From a virus (lineage: Duplodnaviria > Heunggongvirae > Uroviricota > Caudoviricetes): a stretch of 64,000 nucleotides of DNA. The notes under the pieces are model-generated. The model was not told the origin of the DNA, did not search any database, and saw nothing but the letters and a program-made list of their open reading frames with translations. Location: positions 39,886 through 103,885 of the IMG/VR virus record IMGVR_UViG_3300042900_000713, one strand, 5' to 3'. Every line of letters starts with the position of its first letter. Positions within the stretch are counted from its first letter, which is position 1. The translations under genes were made by a program, and so were the position numbers. Shown in pieces: positions 4,897 through 50,593 of this stretch.

Positions 4897-5064
4897 TTAA
4901 GCAGAAACCTCCATCCATTCAATATCATTACGGTAGACAATCATTGGTGATCCGTAATCATCAACCTCATCAACGGCAAAATTAACTGCATGATGTTCTG
5001 ATGTAAAGAACTCCAGATCATCAGGATTAGATTTAGGAGCAACTGACCAGGAAACGAATGCCAT
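4897..5064 (-). CDS. hypothetical protein 55 aa
   Basis: Internal ATG (MAFVSW) after E14 leader CAAACAAACGTC. Confidence 0.4.
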   Translation of the reverse strand: MAFVSWSVAPKSNPDDLEFFTSEHHAVNFAVDEVDDYGSPMIVYRNDIEWMEVSA

Positions 5065-5144
5065 GACGTTTGTTTGGTTGACTTGTTTAGTATAAGGCAC
5101 CCAGAGCGGATCTTAGGTGCCTCGTGTGCCAGTTCTCAAACTGG
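5065..5144 (-). promoter_or_regulatory. PeSL-like cassette E14 (subfamily C)
   Basis: ggttgacttgtttagtataaggcacccagagcggatcttaggtgcc + box. Confidence 0.6.
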
Positions 5145-5315
5145 TCTGCTGTTCTTTGCTGCATGAATCAATTCTTCTTCTGACAGAATGTCAATGTAAC
5201 CATTCGGATAAACACTGCAGAAGTGATCCAGTGCATCATCTGCTTCATCATAAGAAGCATAAACCGCCAGAGTCTCATATGCATCTGGAGTGATCTCAAC
5301 GATGTAGTGTTCCAT
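5136..5315 (-). CDS. acidic small protein 59 aa
   Basis: ATG after E15 leader CAAAGGACACCTCTC; stop in E14 box. Confidence 0.45.
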   Translation of the reverse strand: MEHYIVEITPDAYETLAVYASYDEADDALDHFCSVYPNGYIDILSEEELIHAAKNSRPV

Positions 5316-5400
5316 GAGAGGTGTCCTTTGGTTGACTCTGTAATCATAAGGTACCTACAGGGTCTTCTAGGTGCCTCTTGTGCCAGTTCTTAAAGTGTCC
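5316..5400 (-). promoter_or_regulatory. PeSL-like cassette E15 (hairpin ggtacctacagggtcttctaggtgcc, -10 TATGAT)
   Basis: Different hairpin sequence, same architecture and spacing. Confidence 0.6.
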
Positions 5401-5735
5401 AATTCTTATTTCCAAACACCAAAATATGACTCCTATGTGATAAGATTAAAATACAAAATCTTATCAGGAATCGTCCTGTTATTTTTTATTTCTTACACTT
5501 CTCATCCTAACCGATCTGTTAGAGACTTATAATATGATGTTTCACTGTTTGATTTATTATGTCCTGTTTTATTACGCCGGAGACAGGATATTATGACCAA
5601 CTCCCTCTTTTTATAATGATCAATAACACATAATGTATCATAAGATCATTTGGTTCTTTTAAGATTGTTACCTCTTAGTGCCGTAGCAAGAGTTCAATTG
5701 CTTATCAGAATTAATGTTCTTATGTATCTATTTAG

Positions 5736-5879
5736 TCACATAAACTCTTCAATGAAGTAATCAACTGTAATATCATGAATCTTACAGAATTCTTCTACAT
5801 CATCAGGTAGTTTCTCTAAGATCTCTGATGCTGTAAACTTAACATAGAGATCATAGAATTGGGTTTCATCAAACGCCAT
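5736..5879 (-). CDS. acidic small protein 47 aa
   Basis: ATG preceded by TTGACA-18-TAGACT sigma70-like promoter. Confidence 0.35.
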   Translation of the reverse strand: MAFDETQFYDLYVKFTASEILEKLPDDVEEFCKIHDITVDYFIEEFM

Positions 5880-5980
5880 AAGTGTTTCTGAAGGGGTTTA
5901 GAGGAACTTAAAGATCTTATAGAATACAATTATTCTCAACCGGGACAAACCTAGTCTAGCAGTAACCTGATGGTCTTGTC

Positions 5981-6013
5981 AAGCCTTATGTTAATATTAC
6001 GTAACATAAGGCT
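5981..6013. other. perfect 12-bp-stem hairpin AGCCTTATGTTA-N8-TAACATAAGGCT
   Basis: Lies between genes 6027..6305 and 5736..5879, overlapping the TTGACA -35. Confidence 0.6.
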
Positions 6014-20957: not shown

Positions 20958-21145
20958 CCAACAGAGTTGAGAGCAAGACCAATTCTACTAATTTTATTTT
21001 CTAAACTATTGTAATACTGATAAACATAATTATCATCAAGATTATCATTTTTTGCTTTCCTCACAAGAGCAAGCAAATCGTTAATCTCATAATTACTAAA
21101 GGGTTCTACCGTCCATTCACCGATAGATACAACTTTTTTAGTCAT
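20948..21145 (-). CDS. hypothetical protein 65 aa
   Basis: ATG after E25; stop in E24 box. Confidence 0.45.
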   Translation of the reverse strand: MTKKVVSIGEWTVEPFSNYEINDLLALVRKAKNDNLDDNYVYQYYNSLENKISRIGLALNSVGDT

Positions 21146-21227
21146 CAGGTGTCTTTGTGTGTATGAATGTATTATAGGGCATCTGGTGCCCCTGTGAAGT
21201 ACCCTTGTGCCGGTTTCTCAAGTGTCC
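21146..21227 (-). promoter_or_regulatory. cassette E25 (subfamily E; TTCACA-17-TATAAT)
   Basis: gtgtatgaatgtattatagggcatctggtgcccctgtgaagtacccttgtgccggtttctcaagtgtcc. Confidence 0.65.
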
Positions 21228-21467: not shown

Positions 21468-22139
21468 TTATTCTAATCTTTTTCTTTTGGAAGTATCAAT
21501 ACCTTTTGCTTTTTGATACTTTGTTAGATTTCCCGCATTAGTTATAAATCCAGTTTCAAGGCATTCCCATCGTTGTGCGGCAACTTTTTTTCCAGTTTCA
21601 CTTAATTGCTCTGTTGTAAGTCTGTGAATACCTATTTTTAGTTTTCTTCTCGTTAGCAAACTTTGTCTTGCTGTTTTTTGTCGTTGTTCTTTGGTTAAAC
21701 CACAAATACCAACACCAAGTTCTTTTACTTTTGCTCCACCTTTTTTTGCATTTTCTATTGTTTCTTCTTTTGTAAGTGAGTGAATACCAAGTTTCAATTC
21801 AGTTATTTTTTGACCTCCTTTTCTTCCTGCTATTCTTGCTTGTTTTATTGATATTGTTCCCGCACAACTTTCATTTAGACACCAGTTATCAGTATTATAA
21901 ACTGGTTTTATCAATCTTTGTTCTACTTTATTTGCTTCTATCCAACTTTCATCAGTAAAAGAAAATACTTCCAATATTTGTTTCTTTGGAGTATAAAGTT
22001 CCCAGCACCATTTATGAGTTTCAGGAGAACCCCAATACTCCTCATCAAATCTTTTTTCCTTATGAACTCCATAATAGTAATATGGAACTTCTTCAAATGT
22101 GATTTTATACAAGTATATTCTTGGACTATAAGAAGTCAT
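21468..22139 (-). CDS. GIY-YIG-like homing endonuclease with C-terminal NUMOD3-like repeats (copy 1)
   Basis: RIYLYKITFEEVPYYYYGVH (GIY…YIG spacing); repeated GIHSLTKEE / GICGLTKEQ modules; paralog of 42291..43088. Confidence 0.7.
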   Translation of the reverse strand: MTSYSPRIYLYKITFEEVPYYYYGVHKEKRFDEEYWGSPETHKWCWELYTPKKQILEVFSFTDESWIEANKVEQRLIKPVYNTDNWCLNESCAGTISIKQARIAGRKGGQKITELKLGIHSLTKEETIENAKKGGAKVKELGVGICGLTKEQRQKTARQSLLTRRKLKIGIHRLTTEQLSETGKKVAAQRWECLETGFITNAGNLTKYQKAKGIDTSKRKRLE

Positions 22140-31585: not shown

Positions 31586-32398
31586 GCTAGTGAAAACACC
31601 GTCAGAAAGTGAAAGGACGTTAGCACCGTTGATAAGAATCTTCTGAATGCTACCATTCTTCATTGCTTCACGCAAAATTTCATTCTGCTGATACTTTAGA
31701 TATTCTGGAGTGATGGTAGATGCAATAGACTTATTCTCATTTGCCTTCAGTTCAGCAGTTCGGTTCTTCACAATCTGCTCTCGTTCGGCAGATTGAGCAG
31801 TCACAACACGATTTACAGCATCCACCAAATCAGCAGGAAGGTCTGCTTTCACAACAACCACAGATTCAATCTGAATTTTACCCGCAAGGTCATTCTTCTC
31901 CAGAGACAGATTCAGGTTATTCTTAATAGTATCTTGTATCTTGTCAAGGGAACTATTTACTTCCAGAGCAGGATATTCATCAACTGATTGATTGACCGCA
32001 GAAGTAATCAAACGCTTAATGAAAGTAGACATTAGTTCAATTTGACCATTATCACTAAAGGAATGATTAGAAGTATCATATCCACTATAAAACTCATAAA
32101 GTGATGATGGCGACAAACTATAAGTAACAACAACATCCATATCTTTCATAATGGTGTTGTCTTTAGTTTTTGGAGTTAGGTCATTTGATTGAACTGTAAT
32201 CTTTCGGGTGTTGAAGACCTTAATGCTACCAAAGCCGTCATAGTGAATTCCAGGCAAAAGAATTTCATTTGTTACTTGACCACTGAAATTCGTATAAAGA
32301 CCATTCTCACCAGTGCTAATCGTAGTGAATTGTCCAGCAGTAAATGCAAGAACAATCACACCAGCACCGATACCAATACCAAGTTTTGCGAGAGACAT
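31580..32398 (-). CDS. SPFH/band-7 (prohibitin-like) membrane protein
   Basis: N-terminal TM (IGIGAGVIVLAFTAG), Ala/Glu-rich coiled C-terminus typical of SPFH domains; stop in E30 box. Confidence 0.55.
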   Translation of the reverse strand: MSLAKLGIGIGAGVIVLAFTAGQFTTISTGENGLYTNFSGQVTNEILLPGIHYDGFGSIKVFNTRKITVQSNDLTPKTKDNTIMKDMDVVVTYSLSPSSLYEFYSGYDTSNHSFSDNGQIELMSTFIKRLITSAVNQSVDEYPALEVNSSLDKIQDTIKNNLNLSLEKNDLAGKIQIESVVVVKADLPADLVDAVNRVVTAQSAEREQIVKNRTAELKANENKSIASTITPEYLKYQQNEILREAMKNGSIQKILINGANVLSLSDGVFTSK

Positions 32399-32594
32399 AA
32401 TTAAAAAAAAGTTAGTTAGTTAAGGAAAAAATCAATCAGAAGTTAAACCAGCGTAAATAAATGCTATTGCAACAAAAAGCAAAAGAGCGAGAGGAATCAT
32501 TTTGAGAAAGAACAACACTGGAAGTCCTCTCAAAAGAAGAATGTAGAGTAGAGCAGATACTCCTACTAAAATACCAAGAATTCGTACTACCACA

Positions 32595-32660
32595 TTGGAG
32601 TTTTCAAATCAACAAACATAGTATAGGGTGAATTGGTCGGTTATGCAAGGGGTCTTGTGC
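32595..32660 (-). promoter_or_regulatory. cassette E31 (box + TATACT)
   Basis: cttgtgccagttcaacgagtggcaac. Confidence 0.5.
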
Positions 32661-32664
32661 CAGT

Positions 32665-32943
32665 TCAACGAGTGGCAACTTTTAAAATAATCACATCAAA
32701 AGTAGGAGTATCATATAATATAAAAACTGATGCTTTCACCAAAAACTTATCATCCAAAGTATGAATCACAAAGGTAAGAGGCCATGCTTCTTCCCATCCA
32801 CATTTACCATAATAAAACAGTTTTGCCGCTTCTTCCACAATATCTTCAATTGTCTTATCATAAGGATTCAGAATTGAAAATCTCTCAAAATCAGAAGCAA
32901 GTTCTAAAATTGAAAACTTGTAGTGACGGTTAAGTGTTTTCAT
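32665..32943 (-). CDS. hypothetical protein 92 aa
   Basis: ATG after E31 (-10 TATACT). Confidence 0.5.
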   Translation of the reverse strand: MKTLNRHYKFSILELASDFERFSILNPYDKTIEDIVEEAAKLFYYGKCGWEEAWPLTFVIHTLDDKFLVKASVFILYDTPTFDVIILKVATR

Positions 32944-33302
32944 TGATCTATGAGATGTTCCTCGGTAGTTATACTCACAATCGTATAATCACCAGTCGCA
33001 ATCAACAAATTCGCAACAGCAATCGCCTTGGGCATCGTCTTATGATACTGCCAGCGTCGTTCCAGATCATTTTTGTAGTAGTAATCAATACGATACCGTG
33101 TAGTTTGTTCCACCCATTTATTTAAGTCCTTATCATAGGTTTTGCCCCTTGTAAGTTCGTCAATATTCAGAGTGGGTTCATTATCACCATTCTCATTTTC
33201 CCAAAATTCATCATAGCATTCGCCGGGACATTGTGAGAATGATGGTTGGTCTTTAGTCATTTTCCAAAAATCCCCCAAATAATATAAACAATCAAGTAGC
33301 AT
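32940..33302 (-). CDS. hypothetical protein 120 aa
   Basis: Coupled. Confidence 0.5.
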   Translation of the reverse strand: MLLDCLYYLGDFWKMTKDQPSFSQCPGECYDEFWENENGDNEPTLNIDELTRGKTYDKDLNKWVEQTTRYRIDYYYKNDLERRWQYHKTMPKAIAVANLLIATGDYTIVSITTEEHLIDQ

Positions 33303-33387
33303 ATACCGACACCTAACGCAAACTTTGTGTCTTTAATTCCATGTACTATCCAGATGTTTGCAAGGATTAATAGGATTTGAGAATTAG

Positions 33388-34047
33388 TCATTTGAGTTTC
33401 TCCATTAGAGCATCACGATAAGAATTATATCCATCATCCCAATCATCATCACCAACAACCCTAATAGCATCAGGCATCCACTCCATAAACATTTGAATAA
33501 ACCTCTCTACTTCTTCTTCATAAAGTTCACTACTCCTATTCTTTGGATTTTCCCATTTAAAAGCGAAATTAAACTCCCATTTCTTAAGAAGGTTTTTGAG
33601 TGTTAGTGTTTCGGGTTCTTGTTCATCAAACACCCCATTTTGCTTTGCAGTCTTCATAGCATCTTTGAGACTTTTTTCAGTTTCTTCTGGAGTTTGAGGT
33701 TTAGGTTCCCAATTAGATTTCAGGAGTGTTTTTGGGTCAACATACCAATTGCTCTCTTTGAGTTTTTCTAGTGGAGTTGGTTGAAACTTACTCACTCTTT
33801 CTTCTTTTGCGGCATTATATCCCTGTTGGAAGGAAATCCAACTATCTTCATTACCAATAGTCCATACACCATTCTCACGACCTTTTGGGTAATGACCGTA
33901 AACTCTTTTGAATGCTTCTTTGCAAGGAGTTTTATGATTTTGAAGTTCTTCAAGAAAAGACAGTTTTGCTTCTAATACTTTGATTTCTGCTTTTGTTTTT
34001 TCAATTTCTTGTGCTCCGATTTCTGCTTTTTCGTTTGGGAAAGTCAT
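33388..34047 (-). CDS. hypothetical protein 219 aa
   Basis: ATG after E32 TATAAT promoter. Confidence 0.55.
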   Translation of the reverse strand: MTFPNEKAEIGAQEIEKTKAEIKVLEAKLSFLEELQNHKTPCKEAFKRVYGHYPKGRENGVWTIGNEDSWISFQQGYNAAKEERVSKFQPTPLEKLKESNWYVDPKTLLKSNWEPKPQTPEETEKSLKDAMKTAKQNGVFDEQEPETLTLKNLLKKWEFNFAFKWENPKNRSSELYEEEVERFIQMFMEWMPDAIRVVGDDDWDDGYNSYRDALMEKLK

Positions 34048-34128
34048 TTGAGGTCTTTGTGTGTATGAGAGTATTATAGGGCATCAGGACACAAAGTTCA
34101 AGTGCCTCTGTGACGGTTCAAGGAGTGT
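34048..34128 (-). promoter_or_regulatory. cassette E32 (subfamily E; TTGAAC-18-TATAAT)
   Basis: gtgtatgagagtattatagggcatcagg…ctgtgacggttcaaggagtgtcc. Confidence 0.6.
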
Positions 34129-34130
34129 CC

Positions 34131-34319
34131 TCAATAATCCGTATAAGTTTTCAGTTCTCCACACTTTTTACATCGTAGAGTGTATTTGGAACCAATGGGA
34201 AAGTGTTTTCCTGTTAAAATATCTTCAGGAGTAACCTCAAAATCAAATACTTTTTTCTTGCCTTCTATCTCCCATTCGTGAAAGCATCCAGTCAGTAGAA
34301 ATTCAAGTAGTTTTTTCAT
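34131..34319 (-). CDS. zinc-ribbon small protein ~62 aa
   Basis: Internal ATG (MKKLLEF) ATGA-coupled; CxxC…CKKCG; stop in E32 box. Confidence 0.45.
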   Translation of the reverse strand: MKKLLEFLLTGCFHEWEIEGKKKVFDFEVTPEDILTGKHFPIGSKYTLRCKKCGELKTYTDY

Positions 34320-34483
34320 CCTATGCGTTTCCAGGGTTCCGTAAATACAATCCAGTTTTCTATATTGTGGGACATTTGGGCAGTCCAATGCTGATTATCA
34401 GTATCAATAGCATCAAGATAATGAATTCTAGTCTTGGGGTCAATTACACGAGTAATGTGTATGAATTTTGTTGGTTTAGTCAT
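34316..34483 (-). CDS. hypothetical protein 55 aa
   Basis: ATGA-coupled at both ends. Confidence 0.35.
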   Translation of the reverse strand: MTKPTKFIHITRVIDPKTRIHYLDAIDTDNQHWTAQMSHNIENWIVFTEPWKRIG

Positions 34484-34764
34484 TTAATCCTCTCAATTTC
34501 TGTAATGCGTTTCATAAAACTATCATCACCAAGATCGCCGGAGTACAAATAGTCAATTGCCCTCATAATTTCCGACATCTTACGGAGATGGGGCACTTGC
34601 GTTTTGAGATATTCAATTACCTCTTCACTATGATTGGGAAACCAACCCTCATCATACCTTCCTTCAGGTTTCCCATTGACTAAAATTTCTTCTTGTAGTT
34701 CATCAGCAAACTGATATACTTTGTAGTATTCATAACCGTTGTCGTTAAAATGCCCACCAGACAT
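34480..34764 (-). CDS. hypothetical protein 94 aa
   Basis: Coupled. Confidence 0.5.
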   Translation of the reverse strand: MSGGHFNDNGYEYYKVYQFADELQEEILVNGKPEGRYDEGWFPNHSEEVIEYLKTQVPHLRKMSEIMRAIDYLYSGDLGDDSFMKRITEIERIK

Positions 34765-42290: not shown

Positions 42291-43088
42291 TTATGACATT
42301 CGTATTCTTTTAGAAGTATCTATACCTCTTTTGTTTTGATACCGGGTAAGTGGTCCTGATGTTGATACATATCCAGTTTCAAGGCACATCCATTTTTGTG
42401 AGTTTGTTATTTTACTACCTATTTTACCACCTATTTTACCATTTTCAATTGTTTGTTCTGCAGTTAATCCAAAAATTCCTACACCAAGTTCTTTTGTTTT
42501 TTTACCACCCTTTTTATTATATTTTTTACCATTTTCCATTCTTTGTTCTGGGGTAAATCCGCATATTCCTATACCAAGTTCCTTTGCTTTTTTACCAGCT
42601 TTTTTACCATCTTCCGTCATTTGTTCTTTTGTTCTTCCACAAATCCCTGTTTTATTTTCCTTATGTTTTTGTCCTGATATTTTCCCACCTTTTTTACCAT
42701 CTTTGGTCATTTGTTCTTTTGTTCTTCCGTGAACTCCTATACCAAGTTCTTTTGTTTTTTTACCAGTTATTTTACCTGAATTTCTACAAATTTCTAAAGA
42801 AACCTTACCACCACAATTTTTATTAAGACACCATTTATCAGTATTATAAAATGATTTAATCAATCTTGTTTCAACTTCTTGTGCTTTAATCCATCCTTCA
42901 TCTGTATAAGAAAAGACTTCAAGTATTTGTTTCTTTGCTGTATAAAAATTCCAGCACCACTTATGAGTATATGGGGAACCCCAGTATTCCTCACCAAACT
43001 TCGTTTCCTTATGAACTCCATAGTAATAGTAAGGAACTTCCTCAAAAGTAATTTTGTATATGTAAATTCTTGGACTTTGTGAAGTCAT
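42291..43088 (-). CDS. GIY-YIG-like homing endonuclease with expanded NUMOD3-like repeat array (copy 2)
   Basis: RIYIYKITFEEVPYYYYGVH; six or more KELGIGxxGxTxEQ modules; ~75% identical to copy 1 over the N-terminal 100 aa. Confidence 0.7.
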   Translation of the reverse strand: MTSQSPRIYIYKITFEEVPYYYYGVHKETKFGEEYWGSPYTHKWCWNFYTAKKQILEVFSYTDEGWIKAQEVETRLIKSFYNTDKWCLNKNCGGKVSLEICRNSGKITGKKTKELGIGVHGRTKEQMTKDGKKGGKISGQKHKENKTGICGRTKEQMTEDGKKAGKKAKELGIGICGFTPEQRMENGKKYNKKGGKKTKELGVGIFGLTAEQTIENGKIGGKIGSKITNSQKWMCLETGYVSTSGPLTRYQNKRGIDTSKRIRMS

Positions 43089-43472: not shown

Positions 43473-43658
43473 TCATTTTTCGCTTTCTTTGAGTAGTTTA
43501 ATTTTATCAAATTCTTTGGGATAAATCAAGATGCATACCTCTTTCAGTCTTTCTTCTGGATACTTATTAATACAAACTGTAATGTACGAGTTACATATAA
43601 ACTGAATAGTACCAACATAATCTTTATACTGAACCACAAGACCTTCATAAAATGTCAT
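43473..43658 (-). CDS. hypothetical protein 61 aa
   Basis: Minus ORF. Confidence 0.45.
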   Translation of the reverse strand: MTFYEGLVVQYKDYVGTIQFICNSYITVCINKYPEERLKEVCILIYPKEFDKIKLLKESEK

Positions 43659-44347
43659 TGAAACCTCTTTAGAACCTTATTGTTAATATCATAAAGACCA
43701 AGAGCGCCATCAGGAGAACCACACTCTGGATCCAATACAATAGAGTTTTCATTCATAAAAACTGTATGATAATGACCCGAAACAAGTACATAATCTTGTG
43801 TTCGGTTGTTCTTCCACCATTCAATTCTTTGCTTTTTTTCTCGCTGAATTGGACCGTAGAGCATTGTAGACTTTGTGGATCTATTCAATCTATCTTCATA
43901 TATTAGACAATAATCATCATACTCAGGAACTTCAATACGACTTGAAAAGTATGCGTGTGCAACTCGGTATTCTATTTGATTTTTATCCTGAAATACCACA
44001 CCATAAGGCATTGTATTAAGAAACTCATACAATTCTTCCAAAGAAATATTAGAGTTCTCAAAGTCATTTAGAGTTCTTTGAAGATCTTCACCAATAAAAA
44101 CGTTATTACCTTTTAAATGACGGAGTAATTTGTTTTGATGATTGGATTGAAGACAAATCGCAGAGTTATTCTCAATTTGTTCTTTGACCTGATTATATAC
44201 GGAAACGGAGTTAGTGTTTTCTACACGAGAATCAAATAGGTCTCCCAGAAACAATGGAGTTAAATTGTGATTAATACAATACTCCAGTGCAGATTTCAGT
44301 AAATGTGCCTGAGAATGCACATCACTGATTAATGCAAATGACTTCAT
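43655..44347 (-). CDS. calcineurin-like metallophosphoesterase (candidate RNA-end healing phosphatase)
   Basis: LISDVHSQ (DxH), FLGDLFD (GDxxD), LQSNHQ (GNH-like), VSGHYH; ATG after E36 terminator/TATAAT module. Confidence 0.7.
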   Translation of the reverse strand: MKSFALISDVHSQAHLLKSALEYCINHNLTPLFLGDLFDSRVENTNSVSVYNQVKEQIENNSAICLQSNHQNKLLRHLKGNNVFIGEDLQRTLNDFENSNISLEELYEFLNTMPYGVVFQDKNQIEYRVAHAYFSSRIEVPEYDDYCLIYEDRLNRSTKSTMLYGPIQREKKQRIEWWKNNRTQDYVLVSGHYHTVFMNENSIVLDPECGSPDGALGLYDINNKVLKRFQ

Positions 44348-44428
44348 TGAATTTTTCTTGGTTATGAAAACATTATACCATAAAAAAGAGGGTCTTGAGA
44401 ACCCTCTGTGTGCCAGTTTGAAAAGTGG
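44348..44428 (-). terminator. E36: box + intrinsic terminator hairpin + T6 overlapping extended -10 TGGTATAAT
   Basis: Minus: AACTGGCACACAGAGGGTTCTCAAGACCCTCTTTTTTATGGTATAATG. Confidence 0.65.
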
Positions 44429-44434
44429 TTTTAA

Positions 44435-45109
44435 TCAACGAAGTCCATATTTTTTGATATCTGCTTGTGCATCATCTCTTGCTTGAAGTTCTTTACCTTT
44501 TCTATATTCGCTACCAGATCCTGCTCTATTTTTTCTTGCTTGTGATGTTGAACGCTTACGCCATTCTGGTGTATCCACCATATTAGAAAGACTACGAAGA
44601 ATAATTTCTTTATCACCACCAAGTTTTTTTGCCTGTCTTTCAATTTTACCACGATTCATTTTTTTGAATCCCTCATCAAGAACTTCTTCACAAATACTCT
44701 CCTTCCAATCTTCACTCATATTCGCCATAATAGCAGTTGCTGACTCTTCAGTATCAGCATAACCTTCATCAAGAAGATGTGTGAGGATTAGGTCGTAGAG
44801 GTCTACTTCTTCTTTTCTAGTGTTCCCATGAATTGGTTCCAGTCCTCGTCTACGACGGGATTTATTACCAGCACCTCTGTCTCCAAAATCAGAATATCTT
44901 TCTCCTTTGCCACCTGTTGATTTTTTATCTCGTGGACGTTCATCGCGAACTCCAACATTAAAAGCAGTGGCACGATCTCTTGATGATACATATGGACTAT
45001 GTTGTTTTGCAATCATCTTGTCCTTACGAGGACCATCCATCATTGCCTCATCAAGTTCATAAACACCTTGATATGCGTCTAGAAGATCTAGAAATTCTCT
45101 TGCGTTCAT
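44435..45109 (-). CDS. basic Arg/Lys-rich protein 224 aa
   Basis: TATAAATA 19-26 nt upstream of ATG; shares EGYAD…MANMSEDW motif with 13697..14044; stop in E36 box. Confidence 0.55.
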   Translation of the reverse strand: MNAREFLDLLDAYQGVYELDEAMMDGPRKDKMIAKQHSPYVSSRDRATAFNVGVRDERPRDKKSTGGKGERYSDFGDRGAGNKSRRRRGLEPIHGNTRKEEVDLYDLILTHLLDEGYADTEESATAIMANMSEDWKESICEEVLDEGFKKMNRGKIERQAKKLGGDKEIILRSLSNMVDTPEWRKRSTSQARKNRAGSGSEYRKGKELQARDDAQADIKKYGLR

Positions 45110-45127
45110 TTTACAAATACGTTTTAG

Positions 45128-45135
45128 GTATTTAT
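45128..45135 (-). promoter_or_regulatory. late promoter motif TATAAATA
   Basis: ~20 nt upstream of the ATG of 44435..45109. Confidence 0.5.
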
Positions 45136-45166
45136 AAAAAAAAGAATCCTCTCTTTTTGAAGTGGA

Positions 45167-45580
45167 TCATCTATTTTTATTTAATCTTTCTACATGCTTT
45201 TTATTTAATCTTTCTACATGCTTTTTATGTCCCTCTTCATCTCTATAAATGTGTCTACCGGGAACTGTTAGGTTATATCCAAGTCTATCTTTTCCACCAT
45301 GCCATTTATCTTTTCTTAAAAATTTATCAGCATTTTGTTTAGCAAAAGTCCTTTTACCTTTTTCAGTTTTCTTTTCTTTAAATCCCTTTGATTTTTGTTG
45401 AGGTCCAATAACCTTAATTGCAGTTATCATATTACTAAATCTACTATCAGAGTCCCTTTCACCACGCTCTCTTTTAGCTTTATCTCTTGCAAGATGTCTC
45501 TTCATTTGAGATTGCATTTTAGGTTCATTCATTGGCTTAAATGCTTCAGCAATCATCATAAACTCCTGAAAGGTTTTCAT
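45167..45580 (-). CDS. basic protein 137 aa with tandem KKHVERLNK repeat
   Basis: TATAAATA ~30 nt upstream; 27-bp tandem duplication at the 3' end. Confidence 0.55.
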   Translation of the reverse strand: MKTFQEFMMIAEAFKPMNEPKMQSQMKRHLARDKAKRERGERDSDSRFSNMITAIKVIGPQQKSKGFKEKKTEKGKRTFAKQNADKFLRKDKWHGGKDRLGYNLTVPGRHIYRDEEGHKKHVERLNKKHVERLNKNR

Positions 45581-45610
45581 ATTAACAAATACTTTTTAGA
45601 TATTTATAAA

Positions 45611-45618
45611 TTTTAATC
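45611..45618 (-). promoter_or_regulatory. late promoter motif TATAAATA
   Basis: ~30 nt upstream of the ATG of 45167..45580. Confidence 0.5.
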
Positions 45619-45637
45619 ACTCAAATAGATTCCCATA

Positions 45638-46093
45638 TTATCCTCTAATAATAGTATCAAAACCCTCCTCGTTTGTTGGAAGTTCATATTCTTTTATCAT
45701 TCTCTCAAGGACTTCTGGTGGAATGACTTTACCTGGTCTTTGGGTATTTCTTTTGAGTGCTGTTTCTAATGATACCACAAAGTACACTGCTGTTTTTTTA
45801 TAAGTATCTGGAATATGCTTAAGTTTCTCACGTCTTTGCTTCTTGGTCAAATTTGTTTGATCCCAAATTATACTCTTACCATCTTCTATTGCTTGCCTAA
45901 GAACCTTCATCATAGCAATCTGTGCGAACCTTATGTTTCCTTTAAAAACAGTATTATAAGATTGCTGGCGTTCTTTTGCGACCTCTTGAAGAATGTCATC
46001 AGAAGAAACGCGAACATATTTTTTGTATTTTGGATCATTGGAGAAGGTTGATTTTCCTGCAGTAGGAATGCCAACAAGCATTATCAGTTCCAT
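45638..46093 (-). CDS. polynucleotide 5'-kinase (T4 PseT kinase-domain-like, P-loop)
   Basis: Walker A GIPTAGKST near the N-terminus; 151 aa; overlaps the RNA ligase gene by 10 nt. Confidence 0.7.
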   Translation of the reverse strand: MELIMLVGIPTAGKSTFSNDPKYKKYVRVSSDDILQEVAKERQQSYNTVFKGNIRFAQIAMMKVLRQAIEDGKSIIWDQTNLTKKQRREKLKHIPDTYKKTAVYFVVSLETALKRNTQRPGKVIPPEVLERMIKEYELPTNEEGFDTIIRG

Positions 46094-47244
46094 TTCAAGT
46101 TACCCCACATCCAACGAGCACTTTCAATTTTCGTTTGGGAACTCAAAGATTTTCCAATCATTTTTATCAATACCTCTTGAGAACCTTTACCCGCTTTCAT
46201 TTCATACATTATAGGAACATATTTAGTCAGCAAGATTTTCTGGACGAACTCAACAGCGAAGTCTTTCTTATCAGGATACTTTGTATTTCCAGTCACAAAG
46301 AGTTCCGCCAAATCACAGGCAACGTCTTCCAGACCCACCCAGAATGCCCTCTCAAAAGAGCGTAGGCGTTGAGCGTCCTCTGGTGTCAGCAGCGGCACCA
46401 AATCGTCTACAGAGTCGTCTAGGATGGTCTGAAGGACATTCTTCTCCTGACTGATGCTGTCTTTGGAGCGGTGGCGAAGCACATAATCATCTGCCTTGAT
46501 CTTAATCATATGACCAGAATCAAAACGAATTACCACACCCTCCAAGTCTTCCCATTTACGGATGTGTTCTACAATCTTGGTGATGTCTTTGTCATCACCA
46601 GCAATTGCTTTGACTATAGGAATATTCCATGATTCGGTATATCGCTTCATAATATCATAGGGAACATATTCACCAGTATTTAAATAACGAATGCCAGTCA
46701 GAATCAGTTGATCTTCAGGATAATCAATGACAATACGATTCTTACGAGAGCACCATTCAAAAATAGGAGTGGTTCCCTTTTGGATACATTTATTAATAAA
46801 GGTGGAATAGTGTGATTTATCAGAAATGAACGCTTCTGCTTGTTCAGAAATATCAGTAACACCTGCCTTGGTTGCGAGGAGGAAACCCTCTTTGGTGGAA
46901 ATATGACGAATCATGGATCCATCAAGTTTCTCTAGAACAACGTGAGGTTCATACAGATTGATTCTATTCAGTTGAGTTTCTTCCTTCTCACCAGCATTAA
47001 AGAATTTATTGTATGGTCTTGAAATAAGAACTCCATTATCATCAAAAATCAAACCACGACATTCCCGACGAACAGAAGAACCTACAGGGTCATTAGAGTC
47101 CCACTTAAAGGTTTCCTCAAGTGCGACCATATACTGAATTACGGTGTAACCTTCTTTCTCCATTACCCGGAACTCATCTCTACCTTCAATATGAGGAAGA
47201 ACGTCATGAATGGTTTTAATTTCTGGGAAGTCGTAATTCATCAT
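46084..47244 (-). CDS. rnlA: RNA ligase 1 (T4 RnlA-like)
   Basis: ECRGLIFD…, motif I EKLDGSM (KxDG), IFEWC; length 386 aa like T4 Rnl1 (374 aa); TATAAT after terminator hairpin upstream. Confidence 0.8.
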   Translation of the reverse strand: MMNYDFPEIKTIHDVLPHIEGRDEFRVMEKEGYTVIQYMVALEETFKWDSNDPVGSSVRRECRGLIFDDNGVLISRPYNKFFNAGEKEETQLNRINLYEPHVVLEKLDGSMIRHISTKEGFLLATKAGVTDISEQAEAFISDKSHYSTFINKCIQKGTTPIFEWCSRKNRIVIDYPEDQLILTGIRYLNTGEYVPYDIMKRYTESWNIPIVKAIAGDDKDITKIVEHIRKWEDLEGVVIRFDSGHMIKIKADDYVLRHRSKDSISQEKNVLQTILDDSVDDLVPLLTPEDAQRLRSFERAFWVGLEDVACDLAELFVTGNTKYPDKKDFAVEFVQKILLTKYVPIMYEMKAGKGSQEVLIKMIGKSLSSQTKIESARWMWGNLKWN

Positions 47245-47322
47245 TACTTTGATTTATAAGGTCATTATAGCAAAAAAGGAGGGCGTTGAAACCCTCCTTG
47301 TACCAGTTTAAAAATTGTCTAC
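47245..47322 (-). terminator. E37: terminator hairpin + T6 + TATAAT (degenerate box)
   Basis: Minus: GGAGGGTTTCAACGCCCTCCTTTTTTGCTATAATGACC. Confidence 0.65.
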
Positions 47323-47331: not shown

Positions 47332-47667
47332 TTATGGTGATGGAGTAGAATTTTGTTTTTTGTTTTTTACTGTTCGTGCAATTTGTTTTACAAGATCAAC
47401 AGTTCCTTTCACTGCTTGAGTTACATTACGTGATGTTTGTGCAGACTTTGCTTTAGCATTTTGTCTTTGATATTCTTTTCTTTTTTTGAGTGCTTCTGCT
47501 TTTTCTTGTTGTGCCCGAAATAGTTGAGATGTAATTTTTCTTTTAGTTTTTGATTTTTTTCTTGCTGCCCTAGTTAAATCTACGGATCTTTTTTCACGAG
47601 CATCTGATTCTGCCTTAGCAGTTGCAACATCTTCCATAAACACAGAAAAGGATTTCATAAGCACCAA
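47332..47667 (-). CDS. basic Lys-rich protein 111 aa (MKSFSVFMEDVA family)
   Basis: Paralogous N-terminus; intrinsic terminator downstream. Confidence 0.5.
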   Translation of the reverse strand: MVLMKSFSVFMEDVATAKAESDAREKRSVDLTRAARKKSKTKRKITSQLFRAQQEKAEALKKRKEYQRQNAKAKSAQTSRNVTQAVKGTVDLVKQIARTVKNKKQNSTPSP

Positions 47668-47909
47668 AAACTCTTCTAGTATTTATTTAAAGTTCTTCGT
47701 GATAAGGCATAAAGACATATTCTTCAGGTTCTTCACCCTCAACCACAAACTCTTCAAAAATTGCATGTGAGTCATCAAAGTGTTCTTTATTCACAAGATA
47801 TTGCATTCGGTTACAATAAAACTCTTCAATTTGGTAGATGCTCAAGTTGCGCTCTGCTTGTGTCATGTAAAATACTACTTCAAAATTTATACAGTTTGAT
47901 CGTGATTAA

Positions 47910-48233: not shown

Positions 48234-48512
48234 TCAGTCTATAGTAGTAAAACGGTCACTCCAAAGAATGTAGAACCTTTCGCTAAGGTTCTGAAGCATG
48301 GTATATCGTTGAACGATTTCGCTGTCAATTGGAAGATCAACCATACCATAAGGACAAGCAAAATCAAAAGAAGTTGACGCTTGCATGAGAACTTCATTAA
48401 TCAGTTCGTGTTCGGCAAAGGTCAAGAGAACTTGAATGTCACCTTGAGCAATGTGAGAATCTTCGTTGGTGTCTTCAACAACCGGATAGTTGGGAGTAGG
48501 AAGAGAAATCAT
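48234..48512 (-). CDS. hypothetical protein 92 aa
   Basis: ATG after E38 TATAAT. Confidence 0.5.
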   Translation of the reverse strand: MISLPTPNYPVVEDTNEDSHIAQGDIQVLLTFAEHELINEVLMQASTSFDFACPYGMVDLPIDSEIVQRYTMLQNLSERFYILWSDRFTTID

Positions 48513-48590
48513 AATTTGATTTTGTTTACAAGGTTATTATAGAGTGTTTGAGTGAGAAGTGAGAGCATCCTTGTGCCAGTTTAGCAATCG
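48513..48590 (-). promoter_or_regulatory. cassette E38 (box + TATAAT)
   Basis: ccttgtgccagtttagcaatcgccac; 31-bp spacing. Confidence 0.55.
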
Positions 48591-48789: not shown

Positions 48790-49299
48790 TCATTTTTGAC
48801 GAACCTGTTCTACTTTAGTTTGGTTACCATCAAGATTATATTCTTTATTTAAATCTTTATTCCACACAGTTCCGTGAATAAAACCAACGCCACCAAAAAC
48901 AATAGCGGCGATCAGAATGGCGGCACCTCTTTTAACTTCATCTTCAGTGGCATCATCATTATCAGCGAAATCAGAAATGTTAAGTCCTACAATTTTCTGA
49001 GTCAACCAAGTTGCACCAGCACCATAAGCAGTCATAAGAATCAAAGGAGTAAAATACAAAAGAAGGGCTGAACCTCCAAGAAGTCCCATCAACCAAATAC
49101 CACCAGATCCACCACTAAAGTCTAGACTGCTTCCACCAGAATTTTCACGAATCTCACGGAGGTTGATGATTTGTTCTGCACCATAAACATTTTGAAGTTG
49201 TTCTTTTGCTCCACCAGAGGTGCTTGCACCAACTTCAATGTCAACATAACCAGATTTACTCCCAAGCCAGCATTTTGCCGTCCAACGTCGTGATGCCAT
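48790..49299 (-). CDS. Gly-rich membrane protein 169 aa (2-3 TM)
   Basis: Hydrophobic segments IWLMGLLGGSALLLYFTPLILM and AAILIAAIVFGGVGFI; ATG after E39 terminator/TATAAT. Confidence 0.55.
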   Translation of the reverse strand: MASRRWTAKCWLGSKSGYVDIEVGASTSGGAKEQLQNVYGAEQIINLREIRENSGGSSLDFSGGSGGIWLMGLLGGSALLLYFTPLILMTAYGAGATWLTQKIVGLNISDFADNDDATEDEVKRGAAILIAAIVFGGVGFIHGTVWNKDLNKEYNLDGNQTKVEQVRQK

Positions 49300-49384
49300 A
49301 ATAAGATTCCTTTGAGTTACTGTGTAATTATACTAAAAAAGGGTTGCTTGTGACAACCCCCTGTGACAGTTTTTAAATTGGCTC
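49300..49384 (-). terminator. E39: box variant + terminator hairpin + T6 + TATAAT
   Basis: Minus: GGGGGTTGTCACAAGCAACCCTTTTTTAGTATAATTAC. Confidence 0.6.
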
Positions 49385-49874: not shown

Positions 49875-50075
49875 TTAATTTAGTTTAGTTTGTGGATTAA
49901 GTAAAGTACGGCAATCCTCCTCTGGAAGCATACACATAGCGCAGGATGCAATTTGATAGACATCTTCTTTTGAAAGTCCGTCCAGTGTCATACAGGGTCC
50001 GTCTCCAAAGGCAATAGAAAAACTATAACCATCATCAGGGTGGCAGGAACCACAAGTTTGGATTTGTTTTTTCAT
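49875..50075 (-). CDS. Cys-rich small protein 66 aa
   Basis: CGSCHPDD…CAMC. Confidence 0.45.
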   Translation of the reverse strand: MKKQIQTCGSCHPDDGYSFSIAFGDGPCMTLDGLSKEDVYQIASCAMCMLPEEDCRTLLNPQTKLN

Positions 50076-50593
50076 TAAAACTCATTCATTCCAAGAGGTC
50101 CAGTTACTTTTTTAAGAAGAAAACTACCATCACCTCGATCTATCCATACTACCTCATCACCGGTTTTAAGATTTGCTTCCTCTAACAGGTCGTCAGGAAA
50201 TTGAATATAATAGTCATCCACACCATTTTCAATTTTTCGCTCAATAGGAAGACGCCACTTGACTACCTTATCTGGTTTAGGTTCTTCTGGAGATAGTTTA
50301 GAAAGATATTCCATATCACTATGTCCCCAGGGTGGCATACAATCATCAATTTCTTGTTGCTTGACTTTACTTACAGTTTCTTTCCAGGCATCTTTAAACT
50401 TTGTATCAAATTCTTGAAGATAATACTGAAGATACTCATCTACAGCATACATAAGAGTTTCTGTTTTCTTTAAATTATGATTCTCAAGAGCATCTATTGC
50501 ACTATCCAGAATCTCACGGGCACTACAGATTTTTGATGATACAGACTCAAGTTCGTTGAGTGAGTTCCACACCTTTTGATAATCAAGAGTCAT
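50075..50593 (-). CDS. hypothetical protein 172 aa
   Basis: Coupled. Confidence 0.55.
   Translation of the reverse strand: MTLDYQKVWNSLNELESVSSKICSAREILDSAIDALENHNLKKTETLMYAVDEYLQYYLQEFDTKFKDAWKETVSKVKQQEIDDCMPPWGHSDMEYLSKLSPEEPKPDKVVKWRLPIERKIENGVDDYYIQFPDDLLEEANLKTGDEVVWIDRGDGSFLLKKVTGPLGMNEF

What the first reader, a model, noticed from the sequence alone, without database searches (positions are those of the whole stretch)
43655..47244. Split RNA end-healing and sealing set: RnlA-like ligase, PNK kinase, calcineurin-type phosphoesterase, interleaved with late-promoter basic-protein genes
46084..47244 carries Rnl1 motifs (ECRGLIF, EKLDGSM) and overlaps a 151-aa P-loop kinase (GIPTAGKST) corresponding to the T4 PseT kinase domain only. 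The T4 PseT phosphatase (HAD-type) domain is absent. Instead a stand-alone calcineurin-like metallophosphoesterase (DVH / GDLFD / SNHQ) lies 1.3 kb away, the domain type that bacterial Pnkp uses to remove 2',3'-cyclic phosphates. Together these would reconstitute a tRNA-repair pathway against host anticodon nucleases. Two Arg/Lys-rich proteins with TATAAATA late promoters sit between the phosphoesterase and kinase genes.
Basis: partly seen in the sequence, partly recalled or inferred. Interest (0 to 1): 0.7.

Follow-up and report, generated by a model that had tools for sequence, protein, structure and literature searches.

The report
Split phage RNA-repair gene set
A T4-like cyanophage carries, as three separate genes, the same kinase, metal-dependent phosphatase and RNA ligase that bacteria fuse into one RNA-repair enzyme (Pnkp). 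This is a credible but not revolutionary variant of the known phage defence against host enzymes that cut tRNA.

Summary
On the minus strand lie an intact Rnl1-type RNA ligase (46084..47244), a stand-alone P-loop polynucleotide-kinase-like protein overlapping it by 10 nt (45638..46093), and a stand-alone metallophosphoesterase, MPE (43655..44347).

- **Closest relative:** by HMM, PDB sequence search and predicted fold (TM 0.78), the MPE best matches the phosphatase domain of Clostridium thermocellum Pnkp.
- **Fusions:** all ten multidomain relatives tested are kinase-MPE fusions, and three also carry an Rnl1-like ligase domain.
- **Synteny:** in four related metagenomic phage lineages the three genes are contiguous. 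Across 21 non-identical contexts, an RNA ligase of one of two families lies within 3.5 kb of the MPE in 15.

The two genes between kinase and MPE are a lineage-specific insertion. One starts MKTFQEFMMIAE, close to the T4 internal-protein capsid-targeting sequence, so they are probably packaged late proteins and not part of the repair pathway.

No enzyme activity or RNA target has been shown. A 2021 review already notes calcineurin-like phosphatases in a few jumbo-phage RNA-repair sets, so this is a new variant of a known kind. Interest is moderate.

The parts
46084..47244 (-). Rnl1-type ATP-dependent RNA ligase (386 aa), the sealing enzyme
   Evidence: It matches Pfam PF09511 at 9.8e-33, PHROG 562 at 7.8e-72 and T4_Rnl1_C at 3.8e-5, below cut-off. 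In the alignment to T4 Rnl1, every residue I recall as essential is kept: R63=Arg54, K80=Lys75, F82=Phe77, K106=Lys99, D108=Asp101, G109=Gly102, K126=Lys119, E163=Glu159, E235/G236=Glu227/Gly228, K248/K250=Lys240/Lys242.
45638..46093 (-). Stand-alone P-loop polynucleotide 5'-kinase-like protein (151 aa). Its start overlaps the ligase stop by 10 nt, suggesting translational coupling
   Evidence: It matches AAA_33 at 3e-22 and PHROG 505 'polynucleotide kinase' at 1.9e-18, and the TIGR04075 kinase segment at 4e-9. Against T4 Pnk it keeps the P-loop K14/S15, D32=Asp35, D78=Asp85 and KRNTQR=KRNSKR (Arg122/Arg126). T4 Arg38 is not conserved (Leu35). The ligase-kinase overlap recurs in L006, L008, L012, L013, RpAliso and Cr30.
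43655..44347 (-). Stand-alone binuclear metallophosphoesterase of the Pnkp-phosphatase type (230 aa), the proposed 2',3'-cyclic-phosphate / 3'-phosphate healing enzyme
   Evidence: Invariant family residues are D9, H11, D36, D39, R41, N69, H70, H131, H192 and D206. One search aligns D36/D39/N69/H70/H131 with CthPnkp D233/D236/N263/H264/H323.
43473..43658 (-). 61-aa protein (PHROG 522). Its start overlaps the MPE stop (ATGA), and it is a conserved downstream partner of unknown role
   Evidence: A homolog follows the MPE directly in L012, L006/7, L008/9, L018, L019-22 and L023, and lies near the other ligase type in L010/11. The AF2 model has pLDDT 80 and shows an SH3-like small barrel with no significant PDB match.
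47264..47309 (-). Promoter cassette upstream of ligase-kinase: AAACTGGTACA box, GC hairpin with T-run, TATAAT
   Evidence: The same cassette precedes the ligase in L012, L013 and L006.
44372..44419 (-). Same class of promoter cassette upstream of MPE-p61: AAACTGGCACA box, hairpin, TATAAT
   Evidence: In L012 this cassette follows the kinase stop codon directly.
45167..45608 (-). Inserted late gene 1 with its TATAAATA promoter (45601-45608). It encodes a 137-aa, very basic protein beginning MKTFQEFMMIAE and is probably a T4-type internal (capsid-targeted) protein. It is not part of the repair pathway
   Evidence: The T4 capsid targeting sequence is MKTYQEFIAE (PMC8442874). The gene has no phage homolog. 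It is absent from this position in every relative examined.
44435..45136 (-). Inserted late gene 2 with its TATAAATA promoter (45129-45136). It encodes a 224-aa mixed-charge protein. It is not part of the repair pathway
   Evidence: Residues about 98-144 form a module shared with hypothetical proteins of T4-like cyanophages S-SRM01, S-CRM01, B3 and S-CAM7.
47332..47687 (-). Third late basic-protein gene, flanking the ligase upstream. It has AATAAATA at 47680-47687, its ATG at 47658, 108 aa, pI 10.8, and starts MKSFSVFMED

Best explanation
This is a phage RNA end-healing and sealing module that amounts to bacterial Pnkp taken apart.

1. The 230-aa binuclear metallophosphoesterase opens the cyclic phosphate and removes the resulting phosphate, giving a 3'-OH.
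2. The 151-aa P-loop kinase phosphorylates the 5'-OH.
3. The Rnl1 ligase seals the ends through ligase-AMP and AppRNA intermediates.

**The likely target.** By analogy with T4 Pnkp/Rnl1 against PrrC, the most likely target is a tRNA anticodon loop.

**Expression.** Ligase and kinase are translationally coupled. Ligase-kinase and MPE-p61 are each driven by the phage's recurrent 'AACTGGCACA-hairpin-TATAAT' promoter cassette, which is presumably early.

**The intervening genes.** The two genes between kinase and MPE are a secondary insertion of late-promoter, probably capsid-packaged, proteins.

**Shown versus inferred.**
- Shown: gene content, catalytic residues, fold, fusions and synteny.
- Inferred: the enzymatic activities, the RNA target, the timing of expression, and any physical complex.
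For: - **Ligase:** all Rnl1 catalytic residues are present.
- **Kinase:** the P-loop, the Asp general base and the RxxxR lid align with T4 Pnk. These are invariant in seven of the eight Rnl1-linked kinases aligned; the exception is the frameshifted B3 copy.
- **MPE sequence:** the full metal-ligand and phosphate-binding set is invariant in 35 homologs. It aligns with the CthPnkp residues shown by mutagenesis to be needed for 2',3'-cyclic phosphodiesterase and monoesterase activity (PMC2190708).
- **MPE fold:** the AF2 model has pLDDT 94.6. Its top fold hit is 4j6o, the CthPnkp phosphatase, at E 1e-11 and TM 0.78, ahead of lambda phosphatase, ApaH and PP1.
- **Fusions:** a profile search of 1.8 billion representatives finds about 390-460-aa and about 760-840-aa relatives. 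Ten of ten tested are AAA_33 kinase + MPE, and three also carry RNA_lig_T4_1.
- **Synteny:** Rnl1-kinase-MPE(-p61) is contiguous in L012 (87% MPE identity), L013 (76%), L006/L019-22 (73%) and L018. It is nearly contiguous in L023 and L008.
- **Second ligase family:** in B3/B23, L010/11, L025, L030, L031 and L036 the MPE sits beside a different RNA ligase, PHA02142-OB + PF09414.
- **Overall linkage:** an RNA ligase lies within 3.5 kb of the MPE in 15 of 21 non-identical contexts.
- **Fusion context:** one kinase-MPE fusion lies near a TROVE/Ro60 gene.
Against: - No biochemistry exists for any member of this MPE family.
- Every family member also matches the PrpE Ap4A-hydrolase model nearly as well as it matches Pnkp (best 7e-12 against 1e-14).
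- The arginine equivalent to CthPnkp Arg237 is displaced by one position (GDLFDSR against GDLVDRG).
- The kinase lacks the T4 Arg38 equivalent, and its best PDB match is the tRNA-dependent kinase PSTK rather than Pnk.
- In four or five contexts (S-CBWM1, L027, L032, L033, and the truncated L024) no ligase was found near the MPE.
- The window has no tRNA genes, and no host anticodon nuclease is known for this phage.
Confidence: 0.75

Rival explanations
1. The MPE is not an RNA end-healing enzyme. It would be a lambda-phosphatase-like Ser/Thr/Tyr protein phosphatase, or a PrpE/ApaH-type Ap4A hydrolase or Np4-cap-removing enzyme, acting on host signalling. Its position near the ligase would reflect only shuffling within a hyperplastic region.
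For: - All 35 family members match PrpE NF010148 (best 7e-12).
- Fold matches to lambda phosphatase, ApaH and PP1 all have probability 1.0.
- The S-CBWM1 homolog is annotated as a Ser/Thr phosphatase and has no ligase nearby.
- Four or five contexts lack a ligase.
Against: - The best sequence, HMM and fold matches are all to the Pnkp phosphatase domain.
- Ten of ten multidomain relatives are fused to a polynucleotide-kinase-type domain.
- Linkage to RNA ligases of two unrelated families in 15 of 21 contexts cannot be chance for genes present once or twice per 150-250-kb genome.
- Lambda phosphatase itself has 2',3'-cyclic phosphodiesterase activity (PMC2190708), so family resemblance does not argue against RNA ends.
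Confidence: 0.1
2. The module does heal and seal RNA, but tRNA anticodon loops are not its target. It would repair mRNA or rRNA cut by host toxin or HEPN-type RNases, or process or circularise a phage RNA.
For: - Nothing in the window points to tRNA: there are no tRNA genes and no known cognate nuclease.
- The same MPE partners with PHA02142-OB/PF09414 ligases. From memory, these belong to the nick-sealing DraRnl/NgrRnl kind, which acts on duplex RNA.
- The T4_Rnl1_C domain, said to confer tRNA preference, scores below the Pfam cut-off here (24.4 against 27 bits).
Against: - T4 Rnl1/Pnkp is the paradigm for tRNA repair.
- The C-terminal domain is detected in close homologs (L006, L013).
- The S-CBWM1 MPE homolog lies within a cluster of 34 tRNA genes and a CCA-adding enzyme.
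Confidence: 0.25
3. The MPE is an anti-defence phosphodiesterase that destroys cyclic-nucleotide or 2',3'-cNMP signals. The ligase and kinase would act independently of it.
For: - Calcineurin-like phosphodiesterases are proposed as counter-signal enzymes in jumbo phages (PMC7824862).
- Some distant MPE loci carry Macro and NADAR genes nearby.
Against: - The invariant His70 and Arg41 are the equivalents of the residues needed for monoesterase chemistry.
- The kinase fusions and the ligase linkage are not expected for a signal-degrading enzyme.
Confidence: 0.05
4. The ligase serves mainly as a tail-fibre attachment catalyst, which is the second function of T4 gp63, and the kinase is a nucleoside or tRNA-specific kinase.
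For: - PHROG 562 is named 'RNA ligase and tail fiber protein attachment catalyst'.
- The kinase's best PDB hit is PSTK.
Against: - All ligase catalytic residues are conserved.
- Translational coupling to a Pnk-like kinase and linkage to a Pnkp-type phosphatase are conserved across lineages.
- The promoter cassette is not of the late TATAAATA type used by the neighbouring structural-looking genes.
Confidence: 0.05

Closest known systems
Bacterial Pnkp of the Pnkp-Hen1 RNA repair system (Clostridium thermocellum Pnkp; TIGR04075; PDB 4j6o for the phosphatase domain)
   Same: It has the same three catalytic modules: a P-loop 5'-kinase, a binuclear metallophosphoesterase and an Rnl1-like adenylyltransferase/ligase. 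The MPE here is closest to the Pnkp phosphatase by HMM, sequence and fold. The metal-ligand and phosphate-binding residues are conserved.
   Different: - Here there are three separate polypeptides in the order ligase-kinase-(insert)-MPE, instead of one 850-aa kinase-phosphatase-ligase chain.
- The ligase is a full Rnl1 with all T4 catalytic residues.
- No Hen1 was looked for or seen next to it.
- The MPE motifs are GDLFDSR and SNHQ, against GDLVDRG and GNHD.
- It is carried by a phage, not a bacterium.
Bacteriophage T4 tRNA repair pathway (PseT polynucleotide kinase-phosphatase + Rnl1/gp63) that counters the PrrC anticodon nuclease
   Same: It has the same ligase family, the same kinase fold with the same catalytic Asp and RxxxR lid, and a phage context in a T4-like myovirus (closest cultured relatives are Kyanoviridae B3/B23). 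The expected logic is the same: heal both ends, then seal.
   Different: - The HAD-type 3'-phosphatase domain of PseT is missing from the kinase protein and from the 64-kb window.
- A non-homologous metallophosphoesterase takes its presumed place.
- Ligase and kinase are translationally coupled neighbours, whereas in T4 the two genes are apart (from memory).
- T4 Arg38 is not conserved.
Split T4-type sets in roseophages and Caulobacter phages (Ruegeria phage RpAliso, DSS3P8, Cr30)
   Same: They have the same overlapping Rnl1 + stand-alone kinase gene pair.
   Different: RpAliso supplies the 3'-phosphatase as a separate HAD_PNKP gene 2 kb upstream (PF25109, 1.7e-29). The cyanophage lineage uses an MPE instead.
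Calcineurin-like phosphatases noted in RNA-repair gene sets of a few jumbo phages (Iyer et al. 2021, PMC7824862, citing Burroughs & Aravind 2016)
   Same: It is the same idea. [quoted passage not shown]
   Different: The text I could read gives only a one-sentence survey remark, with no family definition, synteny, structure or fusion analysis. The 2016 paper is not held in the library, so I could not check how much it covers.
Bacteriophage lambda Ser/Thr phosphatase and PrpE/ApaH Ap4A hydrolases
   Same: They share the binuclear metallophosphoesterase fold and motifs. Lambda phosphatase also cleaves 2',3'-cyclic nucleotides (PMC2190708).
   Different: Their structural similarity is lower (TM 0.57-0.69 against 0.78). 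They have no kinase fusions or ligase linkage.

Membership tests
Rnl1 (T4 RnlA-type RNA ligase) | Nucleotidyltransferase motifs with the adenylylated lysine (KxDG), plus the Rnl1-specific residues Arg54, Lys75 and Phe77. The list of essential residues is recalled from T4 mutagenesis literature. | tested here: met
   The alignment gives R63, K80, F82, K106-L-D108-G109, K126, E163, E235-G236 and K248/K250. Pfam PF09511 scores 114 bits against a cut-off of 28.3.
Rnl1 (T4 RnlA-type RNA ligase) | Rnl1-specific all-helical C-terminal domain (PF20819) | tested here: inconclusive
   The score is 24.4 bits against a cut-off of 27. The domain is recorded for the L006 and L013 homologs.
Rnl1 (T4 RnlA-type RNA ligase) | NCBIfam equivalog threshold for TIGR02308 | tested here: not met
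   The score is 140.8 bits against a cut-off of 242. It is a divergent family member, not an equivalog by NCBI's criterion.
Polynucleotide 5'-kinase of the T4 Pnk / Pnkp type | P-loop GxxxxGK(S/T), catalytic Asp general base, and RxxxR lid | tested here: met
   G8-K14-S15, D32 and R114/R118 align with T4 K15/S16, D35 and R122/R126. The P-loop, D32 and D78 are invariant in all eight Rnl1-linked kinases. R114/R118 are kept in all but the frameshifted B3 copy.
Polynucleotide 5'-kinase of the T4 Pnk / Pnkp type | Arg38 equivalent, which contacts the 3'-phosphate of the terminal nucleotide in T4 Pnk (role recalled from memory) | tested here: not met
   Leu35 aligns with T4 Arg38.
T4 PseT bifunctional kinase-phosphatase | C-terminal HAD-type 3'-phosphatase domain fused to the kinase | tested here: not met
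   The 151-aa protein consists of the kinase domain only. No HAD_PNKP homolog is present in the window.
Bacterial Pnkp (TIGR04075) | Single polypeptide in the order kinase-metallophosphoesterase-ligase | tested here: not met
   There are three separate ORFs in a different order. The TIGR04075 scores are 35-46 bits against a cut-off of 750.
Bacterial Pnkp (TIGR04075) | Phosphatase active site: Asp187, His189, Asp233, Arg237, Asn263, His264, His323, His376, Asp392 (PMC2190708) | tested here: met
   - One search aligns D36, N69, H70 and H131 with D233, N263, H264 and H323.
- D9/H11, H192 and D206 are assigned to D187/H189, H376 and D392 by motif order and are invariant.
- The arginine (R41) is invariant but shifted by one residue.
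Bacterial Pnkp (TIGR04075) | Partner Hen1 2'-O-methyltransferase | not tested
   No Hen1 search was run. None of the immediate neighbours has a methyltransferase hit.
Any RNA end-healing/sealing system | Demonstrated 2',3'-cyclic phosphodiesterase / 3'-phosphatase, 5'-kinase and ligase activities on broken RNA | not testable with these tools
   This requires purified proteins.
T4-type internal proteins (for the inserted basic genes) | N-terminal capsid targeting sequence MKTYQEFIAE ending in a prohead-protease site; late promoter; high basicity | tested here: met
   The test is met for the 137-aa protein. It starts MKTFQEF-MM-IAE, 9 of 10 identical with a 2-aa insertion. TATAAATA lies 20 nt upstream, and its pI is 10.4. 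The resemblance is looser for the 108-aa and 224-aa proteins. Packaging and cleavage cannot be tested here.

The most novel reading that the evidence does not exclude
A defined family of about 230-aa phage metallophosphoesterases (motifs GDLFDSR and SNHQ), often followed by a coupled 60-aa SH3-like protein, would be a portable 3'-end-healing cassette. It would have displaced the HAD phosphatase of T4-type Pnkp in freshwater T4-like cyanophages, and would serve two unrelated RNA ligase families (Rnl1 and OB-fold PF09414 ligases). In this phage it would sit in an anti-defence islet together with capsid-injected internal proteins. If so, cyanobacterial hosts would deploy RNA-cleaving defences, not yet identified, that these phages repair.
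Probability: 0.35. Interest if true: 0.55.

Novelty: new variant of a known kind. Interest (0 to 1): 0.4.

Why it matters
**What it would show.** If the activities are confirmed, the phage tRNA/RNA-repair pathway is modular. The 3'-healing step would be carried out by at least three unrelated phosphatase folds. HAD in T4 and the metallophosphoesterase here are covered by this analysis. HD in some phages comes from the review and from memory. The bacterial Pnkp architecture would also have free-standing phage counterparts.

**Practical value.**
- It gives a compact, well-defined enzyme family for biochemical work and possibly for RNA-end-repair reagents.
- It points to RNA-cleaving defence systems in freshwater cyanobacteria that have not yet been described.

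**Limits.** It does not overturn any concept. The logic of heal-and-seal and the use of calcineurin-like phosphatases in RNA repair are both established.

Tried and rejected
- **Megablast:** searching the 4-kb region against 50,697 phage records gave no match, so no close cultured relative exists.
- **Single-sequence locus search:** The search for related loci with the single MPE sequence in IMG/VR found nothing. It worked only with the family alignment.
- **B3/B23 as a counter-example:** I first took B3/B23 as evidence against linkage, because the MPE lies 35 kb from Rnl1. This was rejected when the gene two ORFs upstream of the B3 MPE (gp24) proved to be a second, OB-fold RNA ligase.
- **Sigma-54 promoter:** I considered reading the AACTGGCACA box as the -24 element of a sigma-54 promoter. 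I rejected this because no TTGC -12 element follows at the right spacing, and a TATAAT lies about 30 nt downstream.
- **p61 fold:** the search returned only weak SH3-like barrel matches (E >= 0.08), so no function can be assigned.
- **Neighbouring ORFs:** Pfam and PHROG searches of the neighbours found no further RNA-repair components in the window. No RlaP nucleotidyltransferase, 2H, HD, KptA or RtcB was detected.
- **tRNA scan:** none were found in the window.
- **Burroughs & Aravind 2016:** the paper could not be read because it is not held.
- **TATAAATA enrichment:** the count is not above chance. Only the position and strand of the sites are informative.

Full report
**Observation**

The region 43.4-47.7 kb is coded entirely on the minus strand. 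In transcription order it holds seven ORFs:
- a 108-aa basic ORF (ATG at 47658);
- a 386-aa ligase (46084..47244);
- a 151-aa kinase (45638..46093), whose ATG lies 10 nt inside the ligase ORF;
- a 137-aa basic ORF (45167..45580);
- a 224-aa ORF (44435..45109);
- a 230-aa phosphoesterase, the MPE (43655..44347);
- a 61-aa ORF (43473..43658), whose ATG overlaps the MPE stop codon.

TATAAATA occurs five times in the window, against 5.1 expected. All five copies lie on the coding strand, 14-30 nt before a start codon.

**The ligase**

It matches Pfam RNA_lig_T4_1 at 9.8e-33, PHROG 562 at 7.8e-72 and T4 Rnl1 crystal structures at 1e-24. The residue-by-residue alignment keeps the adenylylated lysine (K106 = T4 Lys99). 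It also keeps every other position I recall as essential in T4 Rnl1: R63, K80, F82, D108, G109, K126, E163, E235, G236, K248 and K250. The Rnl1-specific C-terminal domain is detected just below the Pfam cut-off here, and is recorded for close homologs. The NCBIfam equivalog threshold is not reached, so this is a divergent but catalytically intact Rnl1.

**The kinase**

It matches AAA_33 at 3e-22, PHROG 505 'polynucleotide kinase' at 1.9e-18, and the kinase segment of bacterial Pnkp at 4e-9. Against T4 Pnk it keeps the P-loop, the Asp general base (D32 = Asp35), D78 (= Asp85) and the lid KRNTQR (= KRNSKR, Arg122/Arg126). It has Leu in place of Arg38. Its best PDB hit is the tRNA-dependent kinase PSTK. 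There is no HAD domain in the protein and no HAD_PNKP homolog in the window.

The overlapping Rnl1 + stand-alone kinase pair is widespread. It occurs in Ruegeria phages RpAliso and DSS3P8, Caulobacter phage Cr30, RcXuper and others. RpAliso supplies the phosphatase as a separate HAD_PNKP gene 2 kb upstream.

**The phosphoesterase (MPE)**

Pfam barely sees it (Metallophos_2, 0.006). NCBIfam places residues 30-136 on the phosphatase part of TIGR04075 bacter_Pnkp (2.4e-12), with PrpE second (3.7e-7). All 35 family members behave the same way.

The only PDB sequence hit is 4j6o, the phosphatase domain of C. thermocellum Pnkp. An alignment of 35 homologs (48-93% identity) has invariant D9, H11, D36, D39, R41, N69, H70, H131, H192 and D206. 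One search aligns D36, D39, N69, H70 and H131 with CthPnkp D233, D236, N263, H264 and H323. The others correspond by motif order to D187/H189, H376 and D392. These are the residues shown by mutagenesis to underlie the phosphodiesterase and monoesterase reactions, including hydrolysis of 2',3'-cyclic nucleotides (PMC2190708). The arginine is shifted by one residue (GDLFDSR).

An AlphaFold model built on this alignment is confident (pLDDT 94.6). Its best PDB match is again 4j6o (E 1e-11, TM 0.78, 23% identity). That is well ahead of lambda phosphatase (TM 0.57), ApaH (0.69) and PP1 (about 0.6).

**Domain fusions**

A profile search of 1.84 billion cluster representatives returned 858 relatives. 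Among them are many proteins of about 390-460 aa with the MPE in the C-terminal half, and some of 760-840 aa. All ten that I scanned have an N-terminal AAA_33 kinase. Three also carry a C-terminal RNA_lig_T4_1 domain, which is the bacterial Pnkp architecture. The three window genes therefore correspond one-to-one with the three domains of Pnkp. One two-domain fusion lies near a TROVE/Ro60 gene, which is another RNA-repair context.

**Synteny**

The closest cultured phages are Synechococcus phages B3/B23 (Kyanoviridae, 244 kb; ligase 59% identical, MPE 40%). Metagenomic relatives fall into three groups.

1. **MPE next to Rnl1-kinase.**
   - L012 (MPE 87% identical), L013 (76%), L006/L007/L019-22 (73%) and L018 (81%) have Rnl1-kinase-MPE contiguous. 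The kinase-MPE gap is 68-240 nt.
   - L008/9 (48%) has one 60-aa gene in between.
   - L023 (52%) has the trio plus a second ligase 1.3 kb further on.

2. **MPE next to a different RNA ligase.**
   - In B3/B23, L010/11, L025, a contig carrying P0087, L030, L031 and L036, the neighbour is a ligase with a PHA02142 OB-fold N-domain plus PF09414.
   - L026/L035 have a divergent Rnl1 directly upstream.
3. **No ligase nearby.** None was found within about 8 kb in L027, L032, L033, the truncated L024, or the first 50 kb of S-CBWM1. In S-CBWM1 the MPE lies among 34 tRNA genes and a CCA-adding enzyme.

By my count, an RNA ligase lies within 3.5 kb of the MPE in 15 of 21 non-identical contexts. For a gene present once or twice per 150-250-kb genome, this is far beyond chance.

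**The inserted genes**

This window is the only context with genes of this kind between kinase and MPE. In L012 the kinase stop is followed directly by the sequence ACACTTTTCAAATTGGCACA...hairpin...TATGAT that precedes the MPE. Here the same cassette (44372-44419) precedes the MPE, but 1.2 kb holding two late genes separates it from the kinase.

Evidence on the three basic ORFs:
- The two inserted genes have near-identical leaders (TTTATAAATAyCTAAAAnGTATTTGTwAAwATG).
- The 137-aa protein is very basic (pI 10.4) and begins MKTFQEFMMIAE. The T4 internal-protein capsid targeting sequence is MKTYQEFIAE (PMC8442874).
- The 108-aa ORF upstream of the ligase begins MKSFSVFMED, has AATAAATA 21 nt upstream, and has pI 10.8.
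- The 224-aa protein has mixed charge. It shares a 45-aa module with hypothetical proteins of other T4-like cyanophages.

I read these as T4-type internal (packaged, injected) proteins. That is a hypothesis resting on the N-terminal motif, the promoter and the composition only.

**Regulation**

The box AAACTGGYACA (one mismatch allowed) occurs 23 times, against 3 expected. A looser pattern finds about 30 copies, all on the minus strand. Each is followed after about 29-31 nt, often a GC hairpin with a T-run, by TATAAT or TATACT, and after about 35 more nt by an ORF start.

Ligase-kinase and MPE-p61 each have one such cassette. The arrangement resembles the composite promoter-terminator PeSL elements that mediate gene shuffling in T4-type phages (PMC2839356, PMC4122927). 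That it is an early promoter is inferred, not shown.

**Comparison with the known, and novelty**

Heal-and-seal RNA repair is established in two systems: phage T4 (PseT + Rnl1), and bacterial Pnkp-Hen1 with its calcineurin-type phosphatase. Iyer et al. [quoted passage not shown]

What this analysis adds:
- a defined stand-alone MPE family with a conserved small partner gene;
- its structural assignment to the Pnkp phosphatase clade;
- fusion and synteny evidence;
- its association with two ligase families;
- the recognition that the 'interleaved' genes are an unrelated late-gene insertion.

I rate it a new variant of a known kind, with moderate interest (0.4). The functional assignment is well supported computationally (0.75). 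The RNA target and all the activities remain to be shown.

Noticed in passing
window 45167..45580, 47332..47658, 44435..45109 (- strand): There are three late-promoter (NATAAATA) genes around the repair genes. The 137-aa one starts MKTFQEFMMIAE, which is 9 of 10 identical to the T4 internal-protein capsid targeting sequence MKTYQEFIAE, with a 2-aa insertion. It is very basic (pI 10.4) and ends in a tandem KKHVERLN duplication. The 108-aa one starts MKSFSVFMED (pI 10.8). They are probably packaged, injected internal proteins.
   Followed up: partly
window, about 30 sites on the - strand, e.g. 44372-44419, 47264-47309, 48512-48582, 49299-49372, 21145-21216, 2622-2697: A recurrent cassette reads CACTTnnnnAACTGGCACA, then 29-31 nt (often a GC hairpin plus T-run), then TATAAT, then about 35 nt, then ATG. 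The box occurs 23 times against 3 expected. It looks like the phage's early-promoter/terminator unit, similar to the PeSL elements of T4-type phages, but with a distinctive upstream box that is not a standard -35 element.
   Followed up: partly
window 42291..43088 and 21468..22139 (- strand): These are two paralogous genes, starting MTSxSPRIYxYKITFEEVPYYYYGVHKE, each with a TATAAATA promoter. The longer one has repeated GKK..GxxGxT.EQ units. By eye they look like GIY-YIG/NUMOD3 homing endonucleases, but neither Pfam nor PHROGs gave a hit for the one copy scanned (42291..43088).
   Followed up: no
window 43473..43658 (- strand); L012 6696-6872, L006 10686-10868, L008 10690-10869, L010 11160-11339: A 61-aa protein (PHROG 522) is translationally coupled to the MPE and conserved next to it in most relatives. 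Its predicted fold is an SH3-like small barrel, and its function is unknown.
   Followed up: partly
L002 (Synechococcus phage B3, record 31793-34567); L010, L011, L025, L030, L031, L036: In these phages the MPE is linked to a second RNA ligase family, with a PHA02142 OB-fold N-domain plus PF09414. B3 gp24, annotated hypothetical, is such a ligase. L023 carries both ligase types around one MPE. L030 and L036 carry two MPE paralogs flanking the ligase.
   Followed up: yes
L001 6423-6910 (Synechococcus phage B3 gp131): The B3 kinase homolog aligns in two pieces in different reading frames and contains an ambiguous base. This is either a frameshifted gene or a sequencing error in the deposited genome.
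   Followed up: no
L014 (Synechococcus phage S-CBWM1, 8.9-32 kb): The S-CBWM1 MPE homolog (gp40, annotated Ser/Thr phosphatase) has no RNA ligase nearby. It lies in a region with 34 tRNA genes, a CCA-adding enzyme, an NMN adenylyltransferase and two further calcineurin-like phosphoesterases.
   Followed up: partly
L027 3386-4891, L028, L034 6193-7656; L028 4072-4614; L036 6162-7166: Distant MPE homologs (39-45% identity) sit near DUF2828/DUF7788 proteins and Macro and NADAR domain genes. This may be a different RNA- or ADP-ribose-related counter-defence neighbourhood.
   Followed up: partly
window 50075..50593 (- strand): This 172-aa ORF has a weak C-terminal MazE/AbrB-like antitoxin domain (3.4e-4, below cut-off). 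A similar weak hit is recorded for a 138-aa gene upstream of the ligase in L008.
   Followed up: no
window 1-6000: The first 2 kb of the window has markedly higher G+C (0.47, falling to 0.39 by 6 kb, against about 0.35 elsewhere). The first 6 kb is densely packed with the promoter cassettes in front of very short ORFs (50-117 aa).
   Followed up: no
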